From the NCBI GenBank assembly GCA_038884715.1, contig JAWABG010000003.1:41304-93933 (forward strand): a DNA stretch of 52,630 nt, in the 5' to 3' direction. The stretch comes from Candidatus Woesearchaeota archaeon (lineage in GTDB: Archaea > Nanobdellota > Nanobdellia > Woesearchaeales > UBA9642). Both the position numbers and the translations under genes were made by a program. The notes beneath the pieces were generated by a model. It saw nothing but the letters and a program-made list of their open reading frames with translations, was not told where the DNA came from and did not search any database. Below, piece by piece: positions 2,383 through 40,462 of this stretch (position 1 is the first letter of the stretch; each line of letters opens with the position of its first letter).

Positions 2383-2394
2383 ATTTTTTTTGGT

Positions 2395-3035
2395 TAAATA
2401 GTGACCTCCTCCCCGCACTAAAGTGCGGGGCTTCCGGTGAAGCAGTCTAGGGAAGTTTGGTGGATGTCCATCTGATTTTTTATGTAATTGTCAAATATAT
2501 CAACGGTATTGAATCCAACGCTACTTGCGTAAGCGCCAGGGCTGAAAAAGTGCCCTCTTAGATACCTCAATCTGAATTTTGGCTGTTTCCTGAAAAGCTG
2601 GAAGCTTAGGTTACCCTTAAGAAGTTGCAATGCTTTGATTTGGCTCATGCTTGTAGGAGCTTCAACACTCATATAGATATGTTCTGGCATCACAAAAAGT
2701 TCCCTGATTGTCATATTGTGCCTTTGCGCAGTTTCACACAATATTTCCTTGCAAAGCTTTTTATACTTTCCCTGCTTAAACATCTCGTATCTGTATTTTG
2801 TGCACCATTCAAGATGGTGCACGTTGACGCCGACTTTGTGCGCATAATGTTTGATTTCAAGTTTTGACATACTGCTCGCCTCCGGCGAGTAGAGCTCACG
2901 CTAACTTGGGAAAGTTGGTGCGTGGCGCAAAAAAAATTTTTCGTTCGCCACGCATTTTATTGTTATAAGAATAGAAAAATGTATTGCTATTCATCCCTCG
3001 ACCTAAAGGCCGGAGATTTCTGGCTCTACGAGTTT
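2395..3035 (-). mobile_element. IS200/IS605-family insertion sequence, IS200 type (tnpA only, no tnpB); boundaries approximate
   Basis: A Y1 transposase ORF flanked by GC-rich hairpins that stand out from the AT-rich background: CCCCGCAC-TAAA-GTGCGGGG (2411-2430), CTCGCC-TCC-GGCGAG (2875-2889), TGCGTGGCG...CGCCACGCA (2919-2954), GCCGGA-GATT-TCTGGC (3009-3024). Subterminal hairpins are the hallmark of this IS family. The segment is visibly more GC-rich than its neighbours. Confidence 0.6.
2418..2870 (-). CDS. tnpA: IS200/IS605 family Y1 (HUH) transposase TnpA
   Basis: Typical about 150-aa TnpA: HUH motif in VNVHHLEWCTKYRY, conserved MPEHIYMSV, and a C-terminal tyrosine region (GHFFSPGAYASSVG...DNYIKNQ). 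Confidence 0.85.
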   Translation of the reverse strand: MSKLEIKHYAHKVGVNVHHLEWCTKYRYEMFKQGKYKKLCKEILCETAQRHNMTIRELFVMPEHIYMSVEAPTSMSQIKALQLLKGNLSFQLFRKQPKFRLRYLRGHFFSPGAYASSVGFNTVDIFDNYIKNQMDIHQTSLDCFTGSPAL

Positions 3036-14054: not shown

Positions 14055-15335
14055 ATGGACCTAAACTATATTAATCTTAAATACAAACCATCAAAAACAG
14101 ACTTGATTGCTGAATACTTAACTGAACCAAATAACTGCTCTATAGAAGAGGCTGCCGAGAACATTGCAAAAGAGTCAAGCATTGGAACATGGACAGAATT
14201 ATCAACAATAAATAAAAATATTGCTAAAAGGCTTAAGCCAAATGTATTTTATATAAACAAAAAGCAGAACTTAATTAAGATAGCATATCCATATGAGTTA
14301 TTTGAGTTTGGAAATATGCCCCAGATTTTAAGCTCAATAGGTGGAAATATATTTGGAATGAAGATTATTAAAACATTAAGGCTTGAAGATATTCAGTTTC
14401 CAAAAATCATGATGAATCATTTTAAAGGACCAAAATTCGGGATAAAGGGAATAAGAAAAATTACAAAAACAAAAAAAAGGCCATTAATTGGGACAATTAT
14501 TAAGCCAAAACTAGGACTTAATGCGAAGGAACACGCGCAATGTGCATTTAATGCGTGGGTAGGAGGAATTGATATTGTGAAGGATGATGAAAACCTGACA
14601 AGTATGACATTCAATAATTTTGAAAAAAGAATAACAGAAACTATAAAATTAAAGGAAAAGGCTGAAAAAATGACAGGAGAAAAAAAAATCTATATGCCAA
14701 ATATTACAGCAGAAACAGAGACAATGAAAAAAAGGCTTAAATATGTTTACGATTCTGGAAATGAATATATTATGATGGATATACTAACTGCGGGAATGTC
14801 TGGACTTCAAACAGTAAGAAGCATAATAGAAGACTATCCGTTAGTAATACATGCTCATCGTGCAGGCCATGCAGCCTTGACAAGAAATTCGAAGCACGGA
14901 ATCTCTATGTTATCTATTGCAAAAATTGCTAGATTAATAGGTGTTGACCAATTACACATAGGAACAGCGGATGTAGGTAAAATGGAAGGCTCAGATTTTG
15001 AAACACAGGAAATTGAAGATGAAATAGAACAAAAAATAATAAGAAAAAAAGGACATATTCTAGAGCAAGATTGGCATAACATCAAGCCAGTATTTGCAGT
15101 TGCTAGTGGGGGCTTACATCCTGGAGGACTACCACTTATTATAAAACGTTTAGGATATAACATTGTTTGCCAAATGGGTGGTGGTGTACATGGCCATCCA
15201 AATGGAACTCTTGCAGGAGCAAAAGCCGCAAGACAAGCACTCGAAGCTGTGATGAAAGGAAAGAAATTAGAAGATTATGCTCAAAATCATATTGAATTAA
15301 TGCTCGCAATAAAAAAGTGGGGCATAAAAGAATAA
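14055..15335 (+). CDS. rbcL: Form III ribulose-1,5-bisphosphate carboxylase/oxygenase, large-subunit type
   Basis: RuBisCO catalytic blocks are intact: GTIIKPKLGL, GGIDIVKDDENL (carbamylated Lys context), VIHAHRAGHAA, ASGGLHPG, QMGGGVHGHPNG. There is no small-subunit gene, and the 426-aa length is typical of archaeal form III. Confidence 0.9.
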   Translation: MDLNYINLKYKPSKTDLIAEYLTEPNNCSIEEAAENIAKESSIGTWTELSTINKNIAKRLKPNVFYINKKQNLIKIAYPYELFEFGNMPQILSSIGGNIFGMKIIKTLRLEDIQFPKIMMNHFKGPKFGIKGIRKITKTKKRPLIGTIIKPKLGLNAKEHAQCAFNAWVGGIDIVKDDENLTSMTFNNFEKRITETIKLKEKAEKMTGEKKIYMPNITAETETMKKRLKYVYDSGNEYIMMDILTAGMSGLQTVRSIIEDYPLVIHAHRAGHAALTRNSKHGISMLSIAKIARLIGVDQLHIGTADVGKMEGSDFETQEIEDEIEQKIIRKKGHILEQDWHNIKPVFAVASGGLHPGGLPLIIKRLGYNIVCQMGGGVHGHPNGTLAGAKAARQALEAVMKGKKLEDYAQNHIELMLAIKKWGIKE

Positions 15336-15406
15336 CAAAAAAACAATAAAGATTAAAAAAAATTTAACCACTAAATATTTAAAGCGAGTATTCTTAACTT
15401 AATTAG

Positions 15407-16888
15407 ATGAAGCTCAAAGTTAGAAATATTCCAATAAGTACAGGAAACGCTAATATTGCTGTAATTAATGAGGAAGATGCAATAAAATTTGATCTATTTC
15501 CTGAAGACAGGATTAAGGTTATTTATGGAAAAAATGATGTTGTTGTATCACTTGATATAACAAAAGACAAATCAATGCCTCCAGGATACATATATGTTAT
15601 GGAAGAAGTTACAGAATATTTACATCTAAAAAATAATAAACTCGTGAAAATTGAAATGGCTCAAAAGCCAATCTCTACTAAGTATATCAGAAAAAAACTT
15701 TCAGGAGGAAAGCTAACAAAAAAAGAGATTTATACTATTATTAAAGATATTGTTAAAGGAAATCTAACAGATATTGAGCTTACTTATTTTGTTTCTGGTT
15801 GCTACAGTCATGAATTAAGTATTGATGAAATTACATATATGGTAAAAGCTTTAGTTGATACAGGTCAAAGATTTAGGCCGAGAAAAAAAATTGTAGTAGA
15901 CAAACATTGTATAGGTGGAGTTCCAAATAACAGGACGACAATTATTGTAGTACCAATAATTGCCGCATATGGATTATGTATCCCAAAAACTTCATCAAGA
16001 GCAATTACTAGTCCTGCAGGAACTGCAGACACTTTAGAAGTATTGACAAATGTAAATCTGGACATAAAAAAAATGTCAAAGGTTGTAAAAAAAACAAACG
16101 GGTGTTTAGCGTGGGGTGGCTCTCTTAATCTTGCACCTGCTGATGACAAGATCATAAGAATTGAATATCCTATTTTCATTGATACAACAGGTCTTTTAAT
16201 GTCTAGTGTGCTCGCAAAAAAATATTCGGTAAGTGCGACACATGTAATAATTGATATTCCATACGGACCCGGAGCAAAAGTCGAGACAAGGGTGAGGGCA
16301 TTAAAATTAAAAAAGTTATTTGAATTAATGGGAAGAAGACTGGGTATAAAAATTAGGGTTTTACTTACAGATGGAAGCCAGCCTGTAGGAAATGGTATTG
16401 GGCCATTACTTGAATGTATTGACTGCATTAAAGTCTTAAGAAACAAAAAAGACGCACCACAAGACCTAAAAGAAAAAAGCATTTATCTTGCAGGACAATT
16501 ATTGAATCTTAGTGGGGTAACAAAGAGTGAAAATGATGGAGAAAAGATTGCAAGAGATATACTTGAATCAGGCAGAGCCTACAAAAAATTCATAGAAATT
16601 ATAAAAGCTCAAGGAATGAAAAAAATGCCAAACAAAGCAAAACTAAAACTTGATTTTAGAGCTACAAAAACAGGAAAAATAAAAGAAATTCATAACTCTT
16701 CAATATCCAAGATTGCAAGACTCTGTGGCGCCCCAAAAACAAAAGAAGCAGGACTATACTTATACAAAAAAGTTGGAGATAGTGTAAAAAAAGGGGAAAA
16801 GATTATTACTCTTTATGCTAATAACAAAGATCTTTTAAGATATGCTAAACAAAAATATTTGAGAAATTTGCCAATAATTATTGAATAA
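15407..16888 (+). CDS. deoA: AMP phosphorylase (archaeal DeoA, thymidine phosphorylase family)
   Basis: Archaeal-type N-terminal domain (MKLKVRNIPISTGNANIAVINEEDA) followed by the glycosyl-transferase family 3 core (DKHCIGGVPNNRTT, TSSRAITSPAGTADTLE) and a C-terminal alpha/beta domain. It lies directly downstream of rbcL on the same strand. Confidence 0.85.
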   Translation: MKLKVRNIPISTGNANIAVINEEDAIKFDLFPEDRIKVIYGKNDVVVSLDITKDKSMPPGYIYVMEEVTEYLHLKNNKLVKIEMAQKPISTKYIRKKLSGGKLTKKEIYTIIKDIVKGNLTDIELTYFVSGCYSHELSIDEITYMVKALVDTGQRFRPRKKIVVDKHCIGGVPNNRTTIIVVPIIAAYGLCIPKTSSRAITSPAGTADTLEVLTNVNLDIKKMSKVVKKTNGCLAWGGSLNLAPADDKIIRIEYPIFIDTTGLLMSSVLAKKYSVSATHVIIDIPYGPGAKVETRVRALKLKKLFELMGRRLGIKIRVLLTDGSQPVGNGIGPLLECIDCIKVLRNKKDAPQDLKEKSIYLAGQLLNLSGVTKSENDGEKIARDILESGRAYKKFIEIIKAQGMKKMPNKAKLKLDFRATKTGKIKEIHNSSISKIARLCGAPKTKEAGLYLYKKVGDSVKKGEKIITLYANNKDLLRYAKQKYLRNLPIIIE

Positions 16889-17061
16889 ATTATTAAGTAA
16901 AAATAAATTAAGTAAGAGTAATAATAAATAATAACAACATATTTACTTGATATAAAATATATTTTTTTATATACGTCTTAATATGTGTTTGATTTAAAAT
17001 AATATATAAAACTATAAAAAATCGAATTATCAGAAAATTAAGAGAGAATAAAAAATAATTA

Positions 17062-17586
17062 TTATTCTATTTTTATTATTTTTATTTTGAATGTTAATTT
17101 TTTCCCTGCTAAGGGATGATTAAAGTCAAGACTGATAGTTGTTTCATCCACATCTATTATTAATGCGGGATATTGCTGTCCATCAGGAGCATTAACAATT
17201 AAGTACATACCTGGTTTTGGTTCCTGTTGCTCAATTGATTTGTTTCTAGGTATCTTTTGTATTAGTTGACTGTGTTTCTCTCCGTATGCTTCTTCTGGCT
17301 GCAGTGTAAATGTCTTTTCATCACCAATCTGCATATCCATAATATTACTTTCAAAACCTTTTATAACCATTCCTTTTCCAATCTCAAATTTTAATGGCTC
17401 ATTATGATTTAGAGAGCTATCAAAAACAGTTCCATCCTCAAGATTTCCAGTATAATCAAGAGTAACAATACTTCCATATTTAACGACATCAGATGAGTTT
17501 CCAGAAGTTAATTTGTTTTCTGAAATTGATTTTGTTGCTACATGCTTTTTTTCAATATTAGACTTATCAGCATCCATAAATATCAC
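17062..17586 (-). CDS. FKBP-type peptidyl-prolyl cis-trans isomerase (SlyD-like, with insert-in-flap)
   Basis: VTLDYTGNLEDGTVFDSS, FEIGKGMVIKGFE, FNHPLAGKKLTFKIKI. A polar N-terminal extension of about 35 aa. Confidence 0.85.
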   Translation of the reverse strand: MIFMDADKSNIEKKHVATKSISENKLTSGNSSDVVKYGSIVTLDYTGNLEDGTVFDSSLNHNEPLKFEIGKGMVIKGFESNIMDMQIGDEKTFTLQPEEAYGEKHSQLIQKIPRNKSIEQQEPKPGMYLIVNAPDGQQYPALIIDVDETTISLDFNHPLAGKKLTFKIKIIKIE

Positions 17587-33996: not shown

Positions 33997-34107
33997 GGGG
34001 CGATAACTCAGACTGGGAGAGTGCACCGCTGAAGTGTGGAGAATTACATAACTGAGTTTTTCATCTCAAATCCGGTGATGTCCTGGGTTCAAATCCCAGT
34101 CGCCCCA
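33997..34107 (+). tRNA. tRNA-Phe(GAA) with a 37-nt intron at 37/38 (34035-34071)
   Basis: Acceptor GGGGCGA/TCGCCCC plus A73. D arm ACTC-AGACTGGGA-GAGT. Anticodon stem CACCG/CGGTG with loop CTGAAG|intron|C. Variable loop ATGTC. T arm CTGGG-TTCAAAT-CCCAG. No encoded CCA. The central BHB helix has only 3 of 4 pairs (CTGA/TCAA, one C-A mismatch), i.e. a relaxed motif. Confidence 0.9.
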
Positions 34108-35909: not shown

Positions 35910-36002
35910 TACGGTTGCCGGGAGTCGAACCCGGGCCACAAGCTCATTCCAGATTCTAGTAATCTGTGGGAAGCTCGGATCATACCGTTAGACCACAACC
36001 GT
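35910..36002 (-). tRNA. tRNA-Gly(CCC) with a 22-nt canonical intron (35945-35966)
   Basis: Minus strand: acceptor ACGGTTG/CAACCGT plus A73. D arm GTCT-AACGGTA-TGAT (G10-U25, as in many tRNA-Gly). Perfect BHB: CGAGC-TTCC-[CAC]-AGATT-ACTAG-AATCT-GGAA-[TGA]-GCTTG. Mature loop TTCCCAA. 4-nt variable loop TGGC. T arm CCGGG-TTCGACT-CCCGG. Confidence 0.85.
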
Positions 36003-36194
36003 GTAAAATATTAAAAAAACTAAATTATATTGGTATAAATAAATTATGGAAATAAATATGTTGTGAAAATAATAATTTGTTAGCTTGGCATATTAATTAT
36101 ATAACATTAATAACATTTAAGAGAAGAATAACAAAAAGAAGTTCTGAGTTAATCAAAACCTTTTTAATTACTCTATAACTCTTTAAATGATTAT

Positions 36195-36321
36195 GCGGGA
36201 GTGCCGGAGTGGTCAAATGGAATAATAAGCCAGACTTTACGGGCACGGTTCAGGTAACATAAAAATGTTTGAGTTGCCGTGTGGCTTAGTGCCTACGTGG
36301 GTTCAAGTCCTACCTCCCGCA
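36195..36321 (+). tRNA. tRNA-Leu(CAG) with two introns: D-loop (36217-36238) and 37/38 (36255-36275)
   Basis: Acceptor GCGGGAG/CTCCCGC plus A73. Class II variable arm TGGCTTAGTGCCTAC. T arm GTGGG-TTCAAGT-CCTAC. Anticodon BHB: CACGG-TTCA-[GGT]-AACAT-AAAA-ATGTT-TGAG-[TTG]-CCGTG. D-region BHB: GGTC-[AAA]-TGG...CCA-GACT-[TTA]-CGG. Removing both introns gives an 84-nt class II tRNA with D arm CCG-GAGTGGTCAAA-CGG. Confidence 0.85.
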
Positions 36322-36330
36322 TTTTTAAAA

Positions 36331-39449: not shown

Positions 39450-39917
39450 TTAATCTTCTTTTTTTTCTTTTGCTAATCCGTATTTTGTCAATACCGATTT
39501 GTAAATCTTGAAATCATCAGATTCTTTGAATTCTTTTAATTTTGTTTCGGGCATATATTTTAGCCATTCATAACTCATTTTTAAAACCTTCTTTGTGTCC
39601 TCATCAAGTTCGTGGTCGAGCTCTTCCTCTTCTATTATTTTCGCTTCCTCTGCTTCATTCGCAATTTTGAATTTGTTAATTAACCTTCTGAATAAACCTT
39701 CTTTTTGTCGTTCAATAGCCTCCTCTTCTTCTTCAAGTTCTTCTGCTTCTCTTTCTAGTTCAGCCATGTCTTCAATTTCTTTCTTTTCTTCTTCAACAGT
39801 CATTTTCTTCACTCCTCTGTCTTTATTCTTAAAAAAATTAAATAATCTGCCTCGCGCCTTCCTCTTTTTATTTCTAATATAATCAGTCAAATCCTTATTA
39901 AAATCATCCTTATCCAT
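39450..39917 (-). CDS. Acidic coiled-coil protein, hypothetical
   Basis: 155 aa with a basic N-terminus followed by E-rich helices (EREAEELEEEEEAIERQKE). No motif recognised. Confidence 0.45.
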   Translation of the reverse strand: MDKDDFNKDLTDYIRNKKRKARGRLFNFFKNKDRGVKKMTVEEEKKEIEDMAELEREAEELEEEEEAIERQKEGLFRRLINKFKIANEAEEAKIIEEEELDHELDEDTKKVLKMSYEWLKYMPETKLKEFKESDDFKIYKSVLTKYGLAKEKKED

Positions 39918-40030
39918 AAATCCAGCCTTTTTTTAAATATGCTTCGATCTTATAATCATAAAGAAATATATAAAGGTTGCGGATAATTTATTATAGAAAT
40001 ATCAAATTTAATATAAAAACGTTATAGAAC

Positions 40031-40184
40031 TGGGGATGCAGGGAATTTCAGATAAATTATTTATCCTTTGAACCCTGATCCGCTGGTATAGCCCTTTGTT
40101 AGTCATCACAAATATTTTTTATATTTGCTCATCGCTCCACAAAGACTGGAGCCAGCTATTCTAGCCAGGTTATACTACATCCCC
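40031..40184 (-). tRNA. tRNA-Trp(CCA) with two introns: 58 nt at 37/38 (40088-40145) and 22 nt at 59/60 in the T loop (40045-40066)
   Basis: Minus strand: acceptor GGGGATG/CATCCCC plus A73. Anticodon stem GCTGG/CCAGC with mature loop CTCCAGA. T-arm BHB: CAGGG-TTCA-[AAG]-GATAA-ATAAT-TTATC-TGAA-[ATT]-CCCTG, which gives the mature T loop TTCAAAT. The D stem is weak (G-U, U-A, A-A, U-G), which is the main uncertainty. Confidence 0.8.
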
Positions 40185-40462
40185 AGCAAAAAATAAGAAA
40201 TACAGAGATTTTATAAAGTTTATGACTATAAACATAACTCATAACTCAAAATATTTACGACTGAAAAAATCTATATAACTTTAAAAATATATTAAAGACA
40301 CATATAATTTTTTGACTTTAAGAATTTGCATTAATAAAAATATAATAAACTCTATTAAGTTGTAAATATCTGTTTTTTGTTAAAAAAAATCAGTAATTTA
40401 TAAAAGGTATTAATATATCAAGTGTTAGATTTTTTTTAGTAAAGCAAAAATAAAAAAACAAA

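What the first reader, a model, noticed from the sequence alone, without database searches (positions are those of the whole stretch)
40031..40184. tRNA-Trp(CCA) with two introns, one of them at 59/60 inside the T loop
Seen (minus strand):
- A 9-bp terminal helix CTGGGGATG/CATCCCCAG encloses a 154-nt gene.
- Between T-stem strands CAGGG and CCCTG lie 29 nt instead of 7. They fold as TTCA-[AAG]-GATAA-ATAAT-TTATC-TGAA-[ATT], a perfect 4-bp central helix with 3-nt bulges, stacked on the T stem.
- Cleavage after the second bulge nucleotide removes 40045-40066 (22 nt). This yields the canonical T loop TTCAAAT, identical to the tRNA-Phe T loop in this window.
- The anticodon intron (58 nt, 40088-40145) has canonical spacing: CTCC-[AGT]-CTTTGT...ACAAAG-GGCT-[ATA]. 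Only 2 of the 4 central pairs form, so the BHB is relaxed.
- The mature anticodon loop is CUCCAGA.

Inference: this tRNA needs two splicing events and a tolerant endonuclease. A T-loop intron also blocks T-loop/D-loop tertiary folding until it is removed.
Basis: partly seen in the sequence, partly recalled or inferred. Interest (0 to 1): 0.75.

Follow-up and report, generated by a model that had tools for sequence, protein, structure and literature searches.

The report
Two-intron tRNA-Trp gene, DPANN archaeon
This is a real tryptophan tRNA gene of a tiny (Woesearchaeota-like) archaeon, interrupted twice: by a methylation-guide-type intron beside the anticodon and by a 22-base intron in the T loop. 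That layout is already known from other archaea, so it is correct but fairly ordinary.

Summary
Window 40184..40031 (minus strand) is a 154-nt tRNA-Trp(CCA) gene. Removing 40088-40145 (58 nt, site 37/38) and 40045-40066 (22 nt, site 59/60) leaves a 74-nt sequence that ARAGORN calls tRNA-Trp. The unspliced gene is invisible to ARAGORN and Rfam.

- **T-loop intron:** it forms a perfect hBHBh' motif (5 / 4 / 5-6 bp helices, two 3-nt bulges).
- **Relatives:** among 82 distinct related tRNA-Trp genes (80 new ones plus the window, L055 and L110), 12 carry a 59/60 intron of unrelated sequence with the same splice geometry. Four carry a 53/54 intron.
- **Host:** a 30%-GC DPANN archaeon, Woesearchaeota/Nanoarchaeota-like.
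- **Window context:** all four tRNA genes here are interrupted. tRNA-Leu also has two introns.
- **Anticodon intron:** it belongs to the known tRNA-Trp box C/D guide-intron class. It keeps only the C34 guide and a D'/C' pair.

59/60 introns are already described in Thermoproteales and ARMAN-2, so this is a new member of a known kind.

Side lead: in the closest relative this same gene is broken at 21/22. It is replaced by a four-intron tRNA-Trp linked to a LAGLIDADG endonuclease gene. That endonuclease family sits beside tRNA-Trp in 8 of 8 loci examined.

The parts
40031..40184 (-). tRNA-Trp(CCA) gene, 154 nt, positions 1-73 with two introns
   Evidence: Spliced 74-mer called tRNA-Trp(cca) by ARAGORN. 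Acceptor, anticodon and T stems covary in 74 relatives.
40146..40184 (-). Exon 1, tRNA positions 1-37 (acceptor 5' strand, D arm, anticodon stem 5' strand, CUCCAG)
   Evidence: Contains the 21-mer GTAGTATAACCTGGCTAGAAT, which was found in 96 metagenome contigs.
40088..40145 (-). Intron 1, 58 nt, canonical site 37/38, relaxed BHB (h 5 bp, H 2 of 4 bp, h' 5-6 bp)
   Evidence: BHB scan. ARAGORN -i reports this intron once intron 2 is removed. MFE fold keeps the anticodon stem and the CUUUGU/ACAAAG helix.
40133..40139 (-). UGGAGCG, antisense to G31-A36 of the same tRNA; putative guide for 2'-O-methylation of C34
   Evidence: GGAG lies within the first ~10 nt of 70 of 72 distinct relatives' introns. 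The fifth base upstream of the following box pairs with C34 (read from the sequence).
40129..40132 (-). AUGA, D'-box-like element (consensus CUGA)
   Evidence: ATGA at this fixed offset after GGAG in 55 of 70 introns; CTGA in L001.
40108..40128 (-). 8-bp hairpin GCAAAUAU-AAAAA-AUAUUUGU joining the D'-like and C'-like boxes
   Evidence: Present in the MFE and centroid folds. Relatives have a hairpin of different sequence at the same place.
40103..40109 (-). GUGAUGA, perfect C'-box (RUGAUGA)
   Evidence: Sequence. A GATGA, AATGA or TGTGA-type (C'-like) box follows the hairpin in 67 of 70 relatives' introns; the rest have none.
40067..40087 (-). Exon 2, positions 38-59 (anticodon stem 3' strand, 4-nt variable loop GGAU, T stem 5' strand, UUCAAA)
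40045..40066 (-). Intron 2, 22 nt, site 59/60 in the T loop. Strict hBHBh': T stem (5 bp) / UUCA:UGAA (4 bp) / GAUAA:UUAUC (5 bp), bulges AA|G and AU|U
   Evidence: Top-ranked BHB in the gene. About 1e-3 of shuffles match it. 18% GC against 54% in the mature tRNA. The same site and geometry occur in 11 other distinct genes.
40031..40044 (-). Exon 3, positions 60-73 (U60, T stem 3' strand, acceptor 3' strand, discriminator A73); no encoded CCA
40209..40217 (-). TTTATAAAA, TATA-box-like element ending 25 nt upstream of tRNA position 1
   Evidence: Sequence. The same CTTTATAAAA lies upstream of the orthologous remnant in L001. Function is inferred.
40015..40019 (-). T5 run 12 nt downstream of A73, a likely archaeal terminator
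   Evidence: Sequence; function is inferred.

Best explanation
This is the functional tRNA-Trp(CCA) gene of a DPANN (Woesearchaeota/Nanoarchaeota-like) archaeon.

- Transcription: the gene is transcribed from its own TATA-type promoter as a precursor of about 154 nt.
- Before splicing (inferred): the 5' part of intron 1 (UGGAGCG followed by AUGA, a hairpin and GUGAUGA) pairs with G31-A36. With L7Ae, Nop5 and fibrillarin it directs 2'-O-methylation of C34, as the homologous tRNA-Trp intron does in Euryarchaeota. This pairing excludes the BHB fold, so methylation would come first.
- Cleavage: the precursor then refolds. The archaeal splicing endonuclease EndA cuts both bulge-helix-bulge motifs, and an RtcB-type ligase joins the three exons.
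- Intron 2: it borrows the T stem as its outer helix and T-loop bases U54-A57 as one strand of its central helix. The T loop, and therefore the T-loop/D-loop elbow, can only form after it is excised.
- Final step: CCA is added after transcription, because it is not encoded.

Shown here: the sequence anatomy, in-silico splicing, and comparative conservation of both splice geometries and of the guide and boxes. Inferred: expression, the order of events, the methylation and the enzyme type.
For: - Splicing in silico gives a 74-nt tRNA-Trp(cca).
- Intron 2 is a perfect hBHBh' motif and the best BHB in the gene. About 1e-3 of shuffles match it.
- A TATA-like box lies at about -25 to -33 and a T5 run follows the gene.
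- Exons are 54% GC. The introns are 33% and 18% GC in a 30% GC genome.
- Of 95 related genes spliced in silico, 93 are called tRNA-Trp by ARAGORN; the other two are truncated at the contig end.
- The cloverleaf on 74 distinct spliced sequences has 94.5% of cells paired and 11 pairs with double changes. The T stem is 100% paired. 0 of 500 shuffles reach the observed covariation score.
- 12 of 82 distinct genes have a 59/60 intron of 22-83 nt. Interiors are unrelated, but all end xGAA-NN|U60. The base opposite R57 co-varies (A-U 4, G-C 3, G.U 3, mismatch 2).
- Four distinct genes have a 53/54 intron whose central helix co-varies with the T stem: TCTG/CAGA, TCAG/CTGG, TCCG/CGGA.
- All four tRNA genes in the window are interrupted, and tRNA-Leu(CAG) has a D-loop intron as well as a 37/38 intron.
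- The host is archaeal DPANN by YchF hits, RFC, XPD, form III RuBisCO and AMP phosphorylase.
- GGAG-N2-ATGA is conserved in 55 of 70 anticodon introns, and a C'-like box in 67 of 70.
- Literature: 59/60 and 53/54 BHB introns were cleaved in vitro in ARMAN-2 (PMC3239211). DPANN EndA with the L3 loop goes with more disrupted tRNA genes (PMC5829648). The tRNA-Trp intron guides Cm34 and Um39 (PMC7994747).
Against: - There are no expression data.
- EndA, RtcB, L7Ae, Nop5 and fibrillarin are not in the 52.6-kb window, so the machinery is assumed.
- The rest of the genome cannot be searched for a second tRNA-Trp gene.
- The central helix of intron 1 has only 2 of 4 pairs.
- The guide duplex is only 6 bp. 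The intron lacks terminal C and D boxes and the second (position 39) guide that longer relatives have. Methylation-guide activity of this short form is therefore uncertain.
- The D stem is weak (G.U, U-A, A.A, U.G). It is invariant in the comparison set by construction of the search pattern. The only variation seen is A12.A23 to C12-G23 in L220.
Confidence: 0.85

Rival explanations
1. The locus is a decaying or silent tRNA-Trp pseudogene. The T-loop insert is an unspliced insertion, and the cell uses another tRNA-Trp gene elsewhere.
For: Standard predictors do not see the gene. The D stem is weak and the anticodon BHB is relaxed. In the closest relative, L001, the orthologous gene is indeed dead and replaced. 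The rest of this genome could not be examined.
Against: Every universally conserved tRNA position is intact after splicing. The insert is a perfect BHB placed so that excision restores exactly a 7-nt TTCAAAT loop. A promoter-like box and a terminator are intact. The same weak D arm is present in all 96 contigs, including 10 distinct intron-less genes. The same site is occupied in 11 other distinct genes. No other tRNA-Trp and no endonuclease cassette lie in the window.
Confidence: 0.05
2. The gene is functional and both inserts are spliced, but the anticodon intron is only a structural BHB intron. The GGAGCG/AUGA/GAUGA elements would be relics of an ancestral box C/D guide and no longer direct methylation in this short form.
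For: Terminal C and D boxes and the position-39 guide are absent. The guide duplex is 6 bp, shorter than usual guides (my own knowledge). The spacing of the boxes is not the usual roughly 12 nt (sequence). In Haloferax the intron and its methylations are dispensable, according to a title cited in PMC4090602.
Against: GGAG-N2-ATGA and the C'-like box are retained in nearly all 70 introns, including the whole short-form subfamily (WIN, L139, L148, L153, L173, L198, L211, L212). They are retained although the BHB needs none of them. The fifth-base rule points exactly at C34 in the window and in L001.
Confidence: 0.3
3. The 59/60 intron is not neutral baggage. It was gained or kept because it interrupts a target for DNA-level parasites of tRNA-Trp genes (homing endonuclease cassettes or integrating elements). 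Alternatively, it is a leftover of such an invasion.
For: A LAGLIDADG gene family sits convergently against tRNA-Trp in 8 of 8 loci. In L001 the window-like allele is broken at 21/22 and at 59/60 and replaced. Among genes with the intact D-arm 21-mer, only multi-intron genes (2 of 10 against 0 of 49, p=0.026) have a distant endonuclease homologue downstream.
Against: The intron that goes with the endonuclease is 22/23 (7 of 8 loci), not 59/60. The window gene lacks it and keeps the intact 21-mer. There is no endonuclease gene or its ATGTCCAGTG motif in the window. The sample is small, and the endonuclease's target is unknown.
Confidence: 0.15

Closest known systems
ARMAN-2 (Ca. Micrarchaeum, DPANN) pre-tRNA-Cys(GCA) with a 59/60 intron and pre-tRNA-Pro(GGG) with 53/54 and 59/60 introns (Fujishima et al. 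2011, PMC3239211)
   Same: Same superphylum, same insertion site 59/60 in the T loop and the same BHB logic. The Pro introns are strict hBHBh', like the one here. Relatives of the window gene also use 53/54.
   Different: A different tRNA (Trp) in a different lineage (Woesearchaeota-like). Here the T-loop intron is combined with a 37/38 box C/D-type intron. ARMAN-2 has an epsilon2 EndA that was shown to cut its 59/60 substrate. The enzyme here is unknown; the literature suggests alpha4 with the L3 loop for Woese/Pacearchaeota (PMC5829648).
Multi-intron tRNA genes of Thermoproteales and other Crenarchaeota (sites 20/21, 22/23, 45/46, 53/54, 59/60 and others; reviewed in PMC4090602)
   Same: One to three BHB introns per gene at the same set of non-canonical sites, with scattered presence or absence among close relatives.
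   Different: Those hosts are thermophilic TACK archaea with (alpha-beta)2 EndA. Here the host is an AT-rich DPANN genome.
Box C/D guide intron of euryarchaeal pre-tRNA-Trp (sR50; guides Cm34 and Um39; Clouet d'Orval 2001, Singh 2004, summarised in PMC7994747)
   Same: Same tRNA and same 37/38 site. An antisense element to the anticodon loop places C34 five bases from a D'-type box, followed by a C' box. Long-form relatives (L055, L110 and others) also carry a second guide, GGUCUG-UUGA, that puts position 39 at the fifth base.
   Different: The window intron is a 58-nt short form. The D' box is AUGA, there are no recognisable terminal C/D boxes and no position-39 guide, and the guide duplex is 6 bp. 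No Rfam family matched it.
'Collaborative homing' of a free-standing homing endonuclease and an intron (F-CphI with the psbA group I intron of cyanophage S-PM2; PMC6083498)
   Same: This applies only to the side observation. A free-standing endonuclease gene sits next to an intron-bearing gene, and the intron splits a highly conserved sequence that is intact in endonuclease-free alleles.
   Different: Here the intron is a protein-spliced BHB intron in an archaeal tRNA gene and the enzyme is LAGLIDADG. Nothing has been tested biochemically, and the window gene itself has neither the endonuclease gene nor the 22/23 intron.

Membership tests
Archaeal EndA-spliced (BHB) tRNA intron at non-canonical site 59/60 | Two 3-nt bulges on opposite strands separated by a 4-bp helix, flanked by helices h and h', with cleavage after the second bulge base | tested here: met
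   H=4, h=5, h'=5-6 at 40045-40066; about 1e-3 of shuffles match it.
Archaeal EndA-spliced (BHB) tRNA intron at non-canonical site 59/60 | Excision restores a canonical tRNA (7-nt T loop, cloverleaf, conserved bases) | tested here: met
   74-nt product called tRNA-Trp(cca), T loop TTCAAAT. The cloverleaf covaries in 74 relatives.
Archaeal EndA-spliced (BHB) tRNA intron at non-canonical site 59/60 | Archaeal host that encodes the splicing endonuclease EndA and an RNA ligase | not testable with these tools
   The host is archaeal (DPANN) by protein content. No EndA or RtcB ORF lies in the window, and the rest of the contig could not be fetched.
Archaeal EndA-spliced (BHB) tRNA intron at non-canonical site 59/60 | Intron position and splice geometry conserved in relatives while the intron interior varies | tested here: met
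   12 of 82 distinct genes have a 59/60 intron (22-83 nt), all ending xGAA-NN|T.
Archaeal EndA-spliced (BHB) tRNA intron at non-canonical site 59/60 | Demonstrated removal in vivo or in vitro | not testable with these tools
   No RNA data. Cleavage of a 59/60 substrate has been shown only for ARMAN-2 EndA (PMC3239211).
Canonical 37/38 BHB tRNA intron | Intron between positions 37 and 38 with a BHB built on the anticodon stem | tested here: met
   ARAGORN -i places a 58-nt intron there. h=5, h'=5, but H is only 2 of 4 pairs, so the motif is relaxed. The same GG(C/A)(U/C) 3' strand is seen across the subfamily.
tRNA-Trp box C/D guide intron (sR50 type) | Antisense element to the anticodon loop that places C34 at the fifth base upstream of a D/D' box | tested here: met
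   UGGAGCG-AUGA at 40139-40129; G9 of the intron pairs with C34. The pattern is in 55 of 70 relatives. The duplex is only 6 bp.
tRNA-Trp box C/D guide intron (sR50 type) | Both box pairs present: terminal C (RUGAUGA) and D (CUGA), plus internal D' and C' | tested here: not met
   Only D'-like AUGA and C' GUGAUGA were found. There are no terminal C/D boxes in the 58-nt intron and no Rfam C/D hit above chance.
tRNA-Trp box C/D guide intron (sR50 type) | Second guide targeting position 39 | tested here: not met
   No complement to positions 35-41 in the window intron. A perfect 7-nt complement is present in 12 of 72 relatives, for example L055 and L110.
tRNA-Trp box C/D guide intron (sR50 type) | Host encodes L7Ae, Nop5 and fibrillarin; Cm34 present in the mature tRNA | not testable with these tools
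   These genes are not in the window, and there are no modification data.
Split or permuted tRNA gene | tRNA halves encoded at separate loci or in permuted order | tested here: not met
   All three exons are collinear within 154 nt.

The most novel reading that the evidence does not exclude
Non-canonical BHB introns of tRNA-Trp in these DPANN archaea would be gained, spread or retained through interplay with a free-standing LAGLIDADG homing endonuclease. That endonuclease would target the invariant D-arm sequence of tRNA-Trp. The 22/23 intron of endonuclease-linked alleles would then be the immunity element ('collaborative homing' of a protein-spliced intron). The window gene would be an uninvaded, still susceptible allele, whose orthologue in the sister genome (L001) has been cut at 21/22 and replaced. 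The 59/60 intron might belong to the same conflict. If true, this would give a first concrete DNA-level mechanism for gain of archaeal tRNA introns.
Probability: 0.2. Interest if true: 0.8.

Novelty: new member of a known kind. Interest (0 to 1): 0.35.

Why it matters
For annotation, this tRNA-Trp gene is missed by ARAGORN and by Rfam's tRNA model, and the two-intron tRNA-Leu beside it by Rfam and by ARAGORN without its intron option (with it, mislabelled Phe). A MAG of this lineage would therefore appear to lack tRNA-Trp and tRNA-Leu(CAG). This is the 'incomplete tRNA set' problem noted for DPANN (PMC5829648).

For biology, the comparative set shows that T-arm introns (59/60, 53/54) are common and patchy in one tRNA family of Woesearchaeota-like archaea. 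They coexist with a conserved methylation-guide intron. That makes this tRNA a convenient natural series for studying the order of guide-RNP action and of two splicing events.

The larger prize, if the side lead holds, is a testable mechanism for how protein-spliced tRNA introns move. The mechanism of intron transposition in Thermoproteales is still described as unknown (PMC4090602).

Tried and rejected
1. A genome-contig scan with CTGGCTCCAG-N{2,14}-TGGAGCG was too loose. Nearly all of the 120 hits were random bacterial sequence. Only L055 and L110 were true tRNA-Trp genes.
2. I tried to fetch the rest of the 93.9-kb contig through proteins at the window ends. They are not on record. A genome-wide search for a second tRNA-Trp gene or for EndA was therefore not possible.
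3. I considered a box C/D RNA spanning exon 2, with the C box GUGAUGA in intron 1, the D box CUGA inside intron 2 and a 4-bp terminal stem. The SNORD58 match has E=9.9, the idea conflicts with the BHB, and relatives without the T-loop intron keep the same C' box. Rejected as chance.
4. A C/D-like match lies just downstream of the gene at 39965-39879 (E=5.8). It overlaps the TATA box and 5' end of the next ORF. Rejected as chance.
5. No EndA, RtcB or fibrillarin was found among the 34 window ORFs scanned with Pfam.
6. I checked for a LAGLIDADG gene or its ATGTCCAGTG motif in the window. Both are absent.
7. ARAGORN's 'tRNA-Phe(aaa)' at 36194-36322 is a mis-parse of a two-intron tRNA-Leu(CAG).
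8. Brute-force ARAGORN testing of D-loop deletions in tRNA-Leu did not discriminate between candidates. The BHB criterion picked the site.
9. Several literature look-ups failed or the papers are not held. The primary papers on the tRNA-Trp intron are therefore cited only through reviews.
Full report
**1. What is at the coordinates**

On the minus strand, 40184..40031 reads GGGGATGTAGTATAACCTGGCTAGAATAGCTGGCTCCAG | 58 nt | ACCAGCGGATCAGGGTTCAAA | 22 nt | TCCCTGCATCCCCA.

- ARAGORN in default mode finds no tRNA in the whole window.
- Rfam at gathering threshold finds only the tRNA at 33997-34107.
- A permissive Rfam scan of 39800-40400 gives only chance-level hits.
- With only the T-loop stretch removed, ARAGORN -i reports the gene with a 58-nt intron at the canonical place. 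With only the anticodon intron removed, nothing is found.

Every sequence statement in the finding is correct. This includes the T loop TTCAAAT shared with tRNA-Phe. It also includes the possible 9-bp terminal helix, which needs the two flanking bases on each side.

**2. Are the two inserts introns of the archaeal (bulge-helix-bulge) type?**

I wrote a scanner for two 3-nt bulges separated by a 4-bp helix and flanked by helices h and h'.

- The T-loop insert ranks first in the gene (H=4, h=5, which is the T stem, and h'=5-6).
- The anticodon insert ranks second (H=2, h=5, h'=5).
- The MFE fold of the 154-nt precursor keeps the acceptor, anticodon and T stems and puts a hairpin in each intron (z = -3.4).
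- Shuffling the 22-nt insert gives H=4 with h'>=4 at this site in 189 of 200,000 trials.
- The exons are 54% GC, and the introns are 33% and 18% GC in a 30% GC window. This is the pattern expected if only the exons are under tRNA constraint.
- A TTTATAAAA box ends 25 nt upstream of position 1, and a T5 run follows the gene. Their function is inferred.

**3. Host**

The window encodes an RFC-type clamp-loader subunit (AAA+/Rad17 domains), XPD, a YchF-type GTPase, form III RuBisCO next to a nucleoside/AMP phosphorylase-family protein, GAPDH, PGK and AlaRS. The YchF protein's named best hits are MAGs labelled Woesearchaeota, Nanoarchaeota or 'archaeon'. One relative is at 89% identity and the rest are at 70% or below. 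The organism is therefore a DPANN archaeon. No EndA, RtcB, L7Ae, Nop5 or fibrillarin gene is in the window.

**4. Relatives**

The D-arm 21-mer GTAGTATAACCTGGCTAGAAT was found in 96 metagenome contigs. I spliced the downstream genes in silico by alignment to the mature consensus. ARAGORN called 93 of 95 products tRNA-Trp(cca); the other two are truncated.

There are 82 distinct genes, counting the window, L055 and L110:

| Architecture | Distinct genes |
|---|---|
| No intron | 10 |
| Anticodon intron only | 56 |
| Anticodon intron plus 59/60 intron (one, L173, also has 45/46) | 12 |
| Anticodon intron plus 53/54 intron | 4 |

- On 74 distinct spliced sequences the cloverleaf is 94.5% paired, with 11 pairs changed on both sides. 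The T stem is 100% paired. 0 of 500 shuffles reach the observed covariation score, and slid controls fall to 40-54% paired.
- The D stem (G.U, U-A, A.A, U.G) is invariant here only because the search pattern fixed it. The one relative found by another route, L220, has C12-G23 in place of A12.A23. This is weak support that these positions face each other.
- The 59/60 introns are 22-83 nt long with dissimilar interiors. All end xGAA-NN|T, so GAA pairs with U54-U55-C56. The base opposite R57 varies with it (A-U 4, G-C 3, G.U 3, mismatch 2).
- The 53/54 introns use the T-stem 5' strand in the central helix, and the intron partner co-varies: TCTG/CAGA, TCAG/CTGG, TCCG/CGGA (sequences).
- The window's intron is the shortest and the most canonical of the series.
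- Within the subfamily that shares the window's anticodon-intron type, extra introns differ. WIN has 59/60, L139 has 53/54, L173 has 45/46 plus 59/60, and L148, L153, L198, L211 and L212 have none. This points to frequent gain and loss.

**5. The anticodon intron is the known tRNA-Trp guide-intron type, in a reduced form**

- In 70 of 72 distinct anticodon introns, GGAG lies within the first ~10 nt.
- In 55 of 70, ATGA follows two bases later. A hairpin and a C'-like box (GATGA or AATGA in 63, a TGTGA-type variant in 4) follow in 67 of 70.
- In the window this reads UGGAGCG-AUGA-(8-bp hairpin)-GUGAUGA (40139-40103).
- UGGAGC is antisense to G31-A36, and the fifth base upstream of AUGA pairs with C34 (read). 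L001 has the consensus CUGA at this position.
- Longer relatives such as L055 and L110 also carry ...GGUCUG-UUGA, which places position 39 at the fifth base.
- This matches the published box C/D intron of euryarchaeal pre-tRNA-Trp, which guides Cm34 and Um39 (PMC7994747; primary papers are cited there and in PMC4090602).
- The window's 58-nt form lacks terminal C/D boxes and the second guide, so its activity is uncertain.
- The guide pairing and the BHB compete for C34 and C35. Any methylation must therefore precede splicing (inference, in line with the published sequential model).

**6. Other tRNA genes in the window**

A permissive Rfam scan and ARAGORN -i add two more genes. All four tRNA genes in the window are interrupted, and two of them twice.

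- tRNA-Gly(CCC) lies at 35910-36002 (-), with a perfect 22-nt canonical intron.
- A gene at 36195-36321 (+) was mis-called Phe(aaa) by ARAGORN. It is tRNA-Leu(CAG) with two introns.
  - The 37/38 intron is at 36255-36275 (H=4, h=5, h'=5).
  - A 22-nt D-loop intron is at 36217-36238 (HBh' type: H GGTC/GACT 4 bp, h' 3 bp, no h).
  - The spliced 84-mer is called tRNA-Leu(cag).

This supports the view that the organism's splicing system handles non-canonical sites, including a relaxed one.

**7. Comparison with what is known**

- Non-canonical sites including 53/54 and 59/60 are listed in the review PMC4090602.
- ARMAN-2, another DPANN archaeon, has pre-tRNA-Cys with a 59/60 intron and pre-tRNA-Pro with 53/54 plus 59/60 introns. 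Its EndA cut the 59/60 substrate in vitro (PMC3239211).
- Kaneta et al. (PMC5829648) predicted tRNAs for one Woesearchaeota and one Pacearchaeota genome. They linked L3-loop alpha4 EndAs of DPANN with more disrupted tRNA genes, and noted that incomplete tRNA sets hint at undetected disrupted genes.

The finding is therefore a correct new instance of a known kind. On the 'tolerant endonuclease' point, the T-loop intron is a strict motif, so the published rule (strict enzymes need hBHBh') does not demand tolerance for it. The relaxed anticodon intron and the HBh' intron of tRNA-Leu do.

**8. Side lead from the closest relative**

L001 has YchF at 89% identity and is syntenic with the window. There the orthologous gene is destroyed.

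- Its first 23 bases, GGGGATGTAGTATAACCTGGCTA (tRNA positions 1-21), and its last 14 (positions 60-73) flank about 1.05 kb.
- That insert holds a different tRNA-Trp gene (acceptor GGGGACA) with four BHB introns at 15/16, 22/23, 37/38 and 45/46. The spliced product is called tRNA-Trp.
- It also holds a convergent LAGLIDADG ORF.

Homologues of that ORF at 50-60% identity were looked up in seven further distinct loci.

- In all eight loci a tRNA-Trp gene abuts or overlaps the ORF's 3' end.
- Seven of the eight carry a 22/23 intron, which splits the otherwise invariant 21-mer. Three also have 15/16 and two have 53/54.
- Remnant tRNA 3' ends lie beyond the ORF start in L001, L218 and L220.
- L221 and L225 are syntenic with the window.
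- Among 59 distinct genes with an intact 21-mer and enough downstream sequence, only two have a (distant) homologue downstream. Both are multi-intron genes (2 of 10 against 0 of 49, p=0.026).
- The window has neither the ORF nor its ATGTCCAGTG motif.

A free-standing homing endonuclease that cuts the uninterrupted D arm, with the 22/23 intron as immunity, would fit. This would resemble 'collaborative homing' (PMC6083498). It is untested and concerns relatives rather than the window gene. Published reviews give three as the maximum number of introns in one archaeal tRNA gene (PMC3239211), so the four-intron gene is worth checking.

**9. Verdict**

I put 0.85 confidence on a functional two-intron tRNA-Trp gene. 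It is a new member of a known kind, with modest interest (0.35). The more novel reading, tRNA-Trp introns tied to a homing endonuclease, has about 0.2 probability of applying to this locus and would be of high interest if true.

Noticed in passing
window 36195-36321 (+): tRNA-Leu(CAG) with two introns. One is a 22-nt D-loop intron at 36217-36238 (relaxed HBh': H GGTC/GACT, h' 3 bp, no outer helix). The other is a strict 21-nt 37/38 intron at 36255-36275. Rfam misses the gene and ARAGORN -i mis-calls it Phe(aaa). The spliced 84-mer is called tRNA-Leu(cag).
   Followed up: yes
window 35910-36002 (-): tRNA-Gly(CCC) with a perfect 22-nt canonical BHB intron (TTCC/GGAA, AGATT/AATCT). It scores 47 bits against the Rfam tRNA model, but was only reported with the permissive filters.
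   Followed up: yes
window 33997-34107 (+): tRNA-Phe(GAA) with a ~37-nt anticodon-loop insert. My strict BHB scan found no clean motif at 37/38: h' next to the bulge is only 1 bp, and a GAGA/TCTC helix lies further in.
   Followed up: partly
L001 16404-17519 (minus strand): The orthologous tRNA-Trp of the closest relative is broken at 21/22 and 59/60. It is replaced by a cassette holding a four-intron tRNA-Trp gene (15/16, 22/23, 37/38, 45/46; L001 17382-17189) and a convergent LAGLIDADG ORF (16574-17227). Four introns exceeds the published maximum of three per archaeal tRNA gene.
   Followed up: partly
L218, L220, L221, L222, L224, L225, L226 (LAGLIDADG ORFs and the ~300 nt past their stop codons): This LAGLIDADG family is next to, and convergent with, a tRNA-Trp gene in 8 of 8 distinct loci. 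Seven of the eight tRNA genes have a 22/23 intron that splits the otherwise invariant D-arm 21-mer. The motif ATGTCCAGTG (CACTGGACAT on the ORF strand) lies just upstream of the ORF's TATA box in L001, L218, L221, L224 and L225. This suggests a free-standing homing endonuclease that targets tRNA-Trp.
   Followed up: partly
L220 ~540-650; L218 ~900-915; L001 16411-16424: Leftover tRNA 3' ends (T arm and/or acceptor 3' strand) lie beyond the start of the LAGLIDADG ORF. L220 has two in tandem, as if the locus had been invaded repeatedly.
   Followed up: no
L123, L138/L174, L139, L195, L221, L224: These tRNA-Trp genes have a 53/54 intron. Its central BHB helix uses the T-stem 5' strand, and the intron partner co-varies with it (TCTG/CAGA, TCAG/CTGG, TCCG/CGGA).
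   Followed up: partly
window 2388-2870 (-): An HgcC-family RNA match (39 bits, below the gathering score of 50, E=1.6e-5) overlaps the 3' end of an IS200-like Y1 transposase ORF (2418-2870). It is possibly an IS200/IS605-associated RNA.
   Followed up: no
window 14055-16888 (+): Form III-type RuBisCO large subunit is followed by a nucleoside/AMP-phosphorylase-like gene (thymidine phosphorylase-family Pfam domains). This pair resembles the nucleotide-salvage pair reported for DPANN archaea (my own knowledge) and is consistent with the taxonomic call.
   Followed up: no
window 40043-40114 (-) and 39879-39965 (-): Two weak box C/D snoRNA-like matches (SNORD58 E=9.9; snoR21 E=5.8). The first joins the C' box of intron 1 to a CUGA inside intron 2. 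Both were judged to be chance.
   Followed up: yes
window 40030 and 40185-40186; L001 flanks of the remnant: The bases flanking the tRNA (CU upstream, G downstream, with A73) can extend the acceptor helix to 9 bp in the precursor. The same flanks are kept in L001 but not in more distant relatives. Their meaning is unknown.
   Followed up: no
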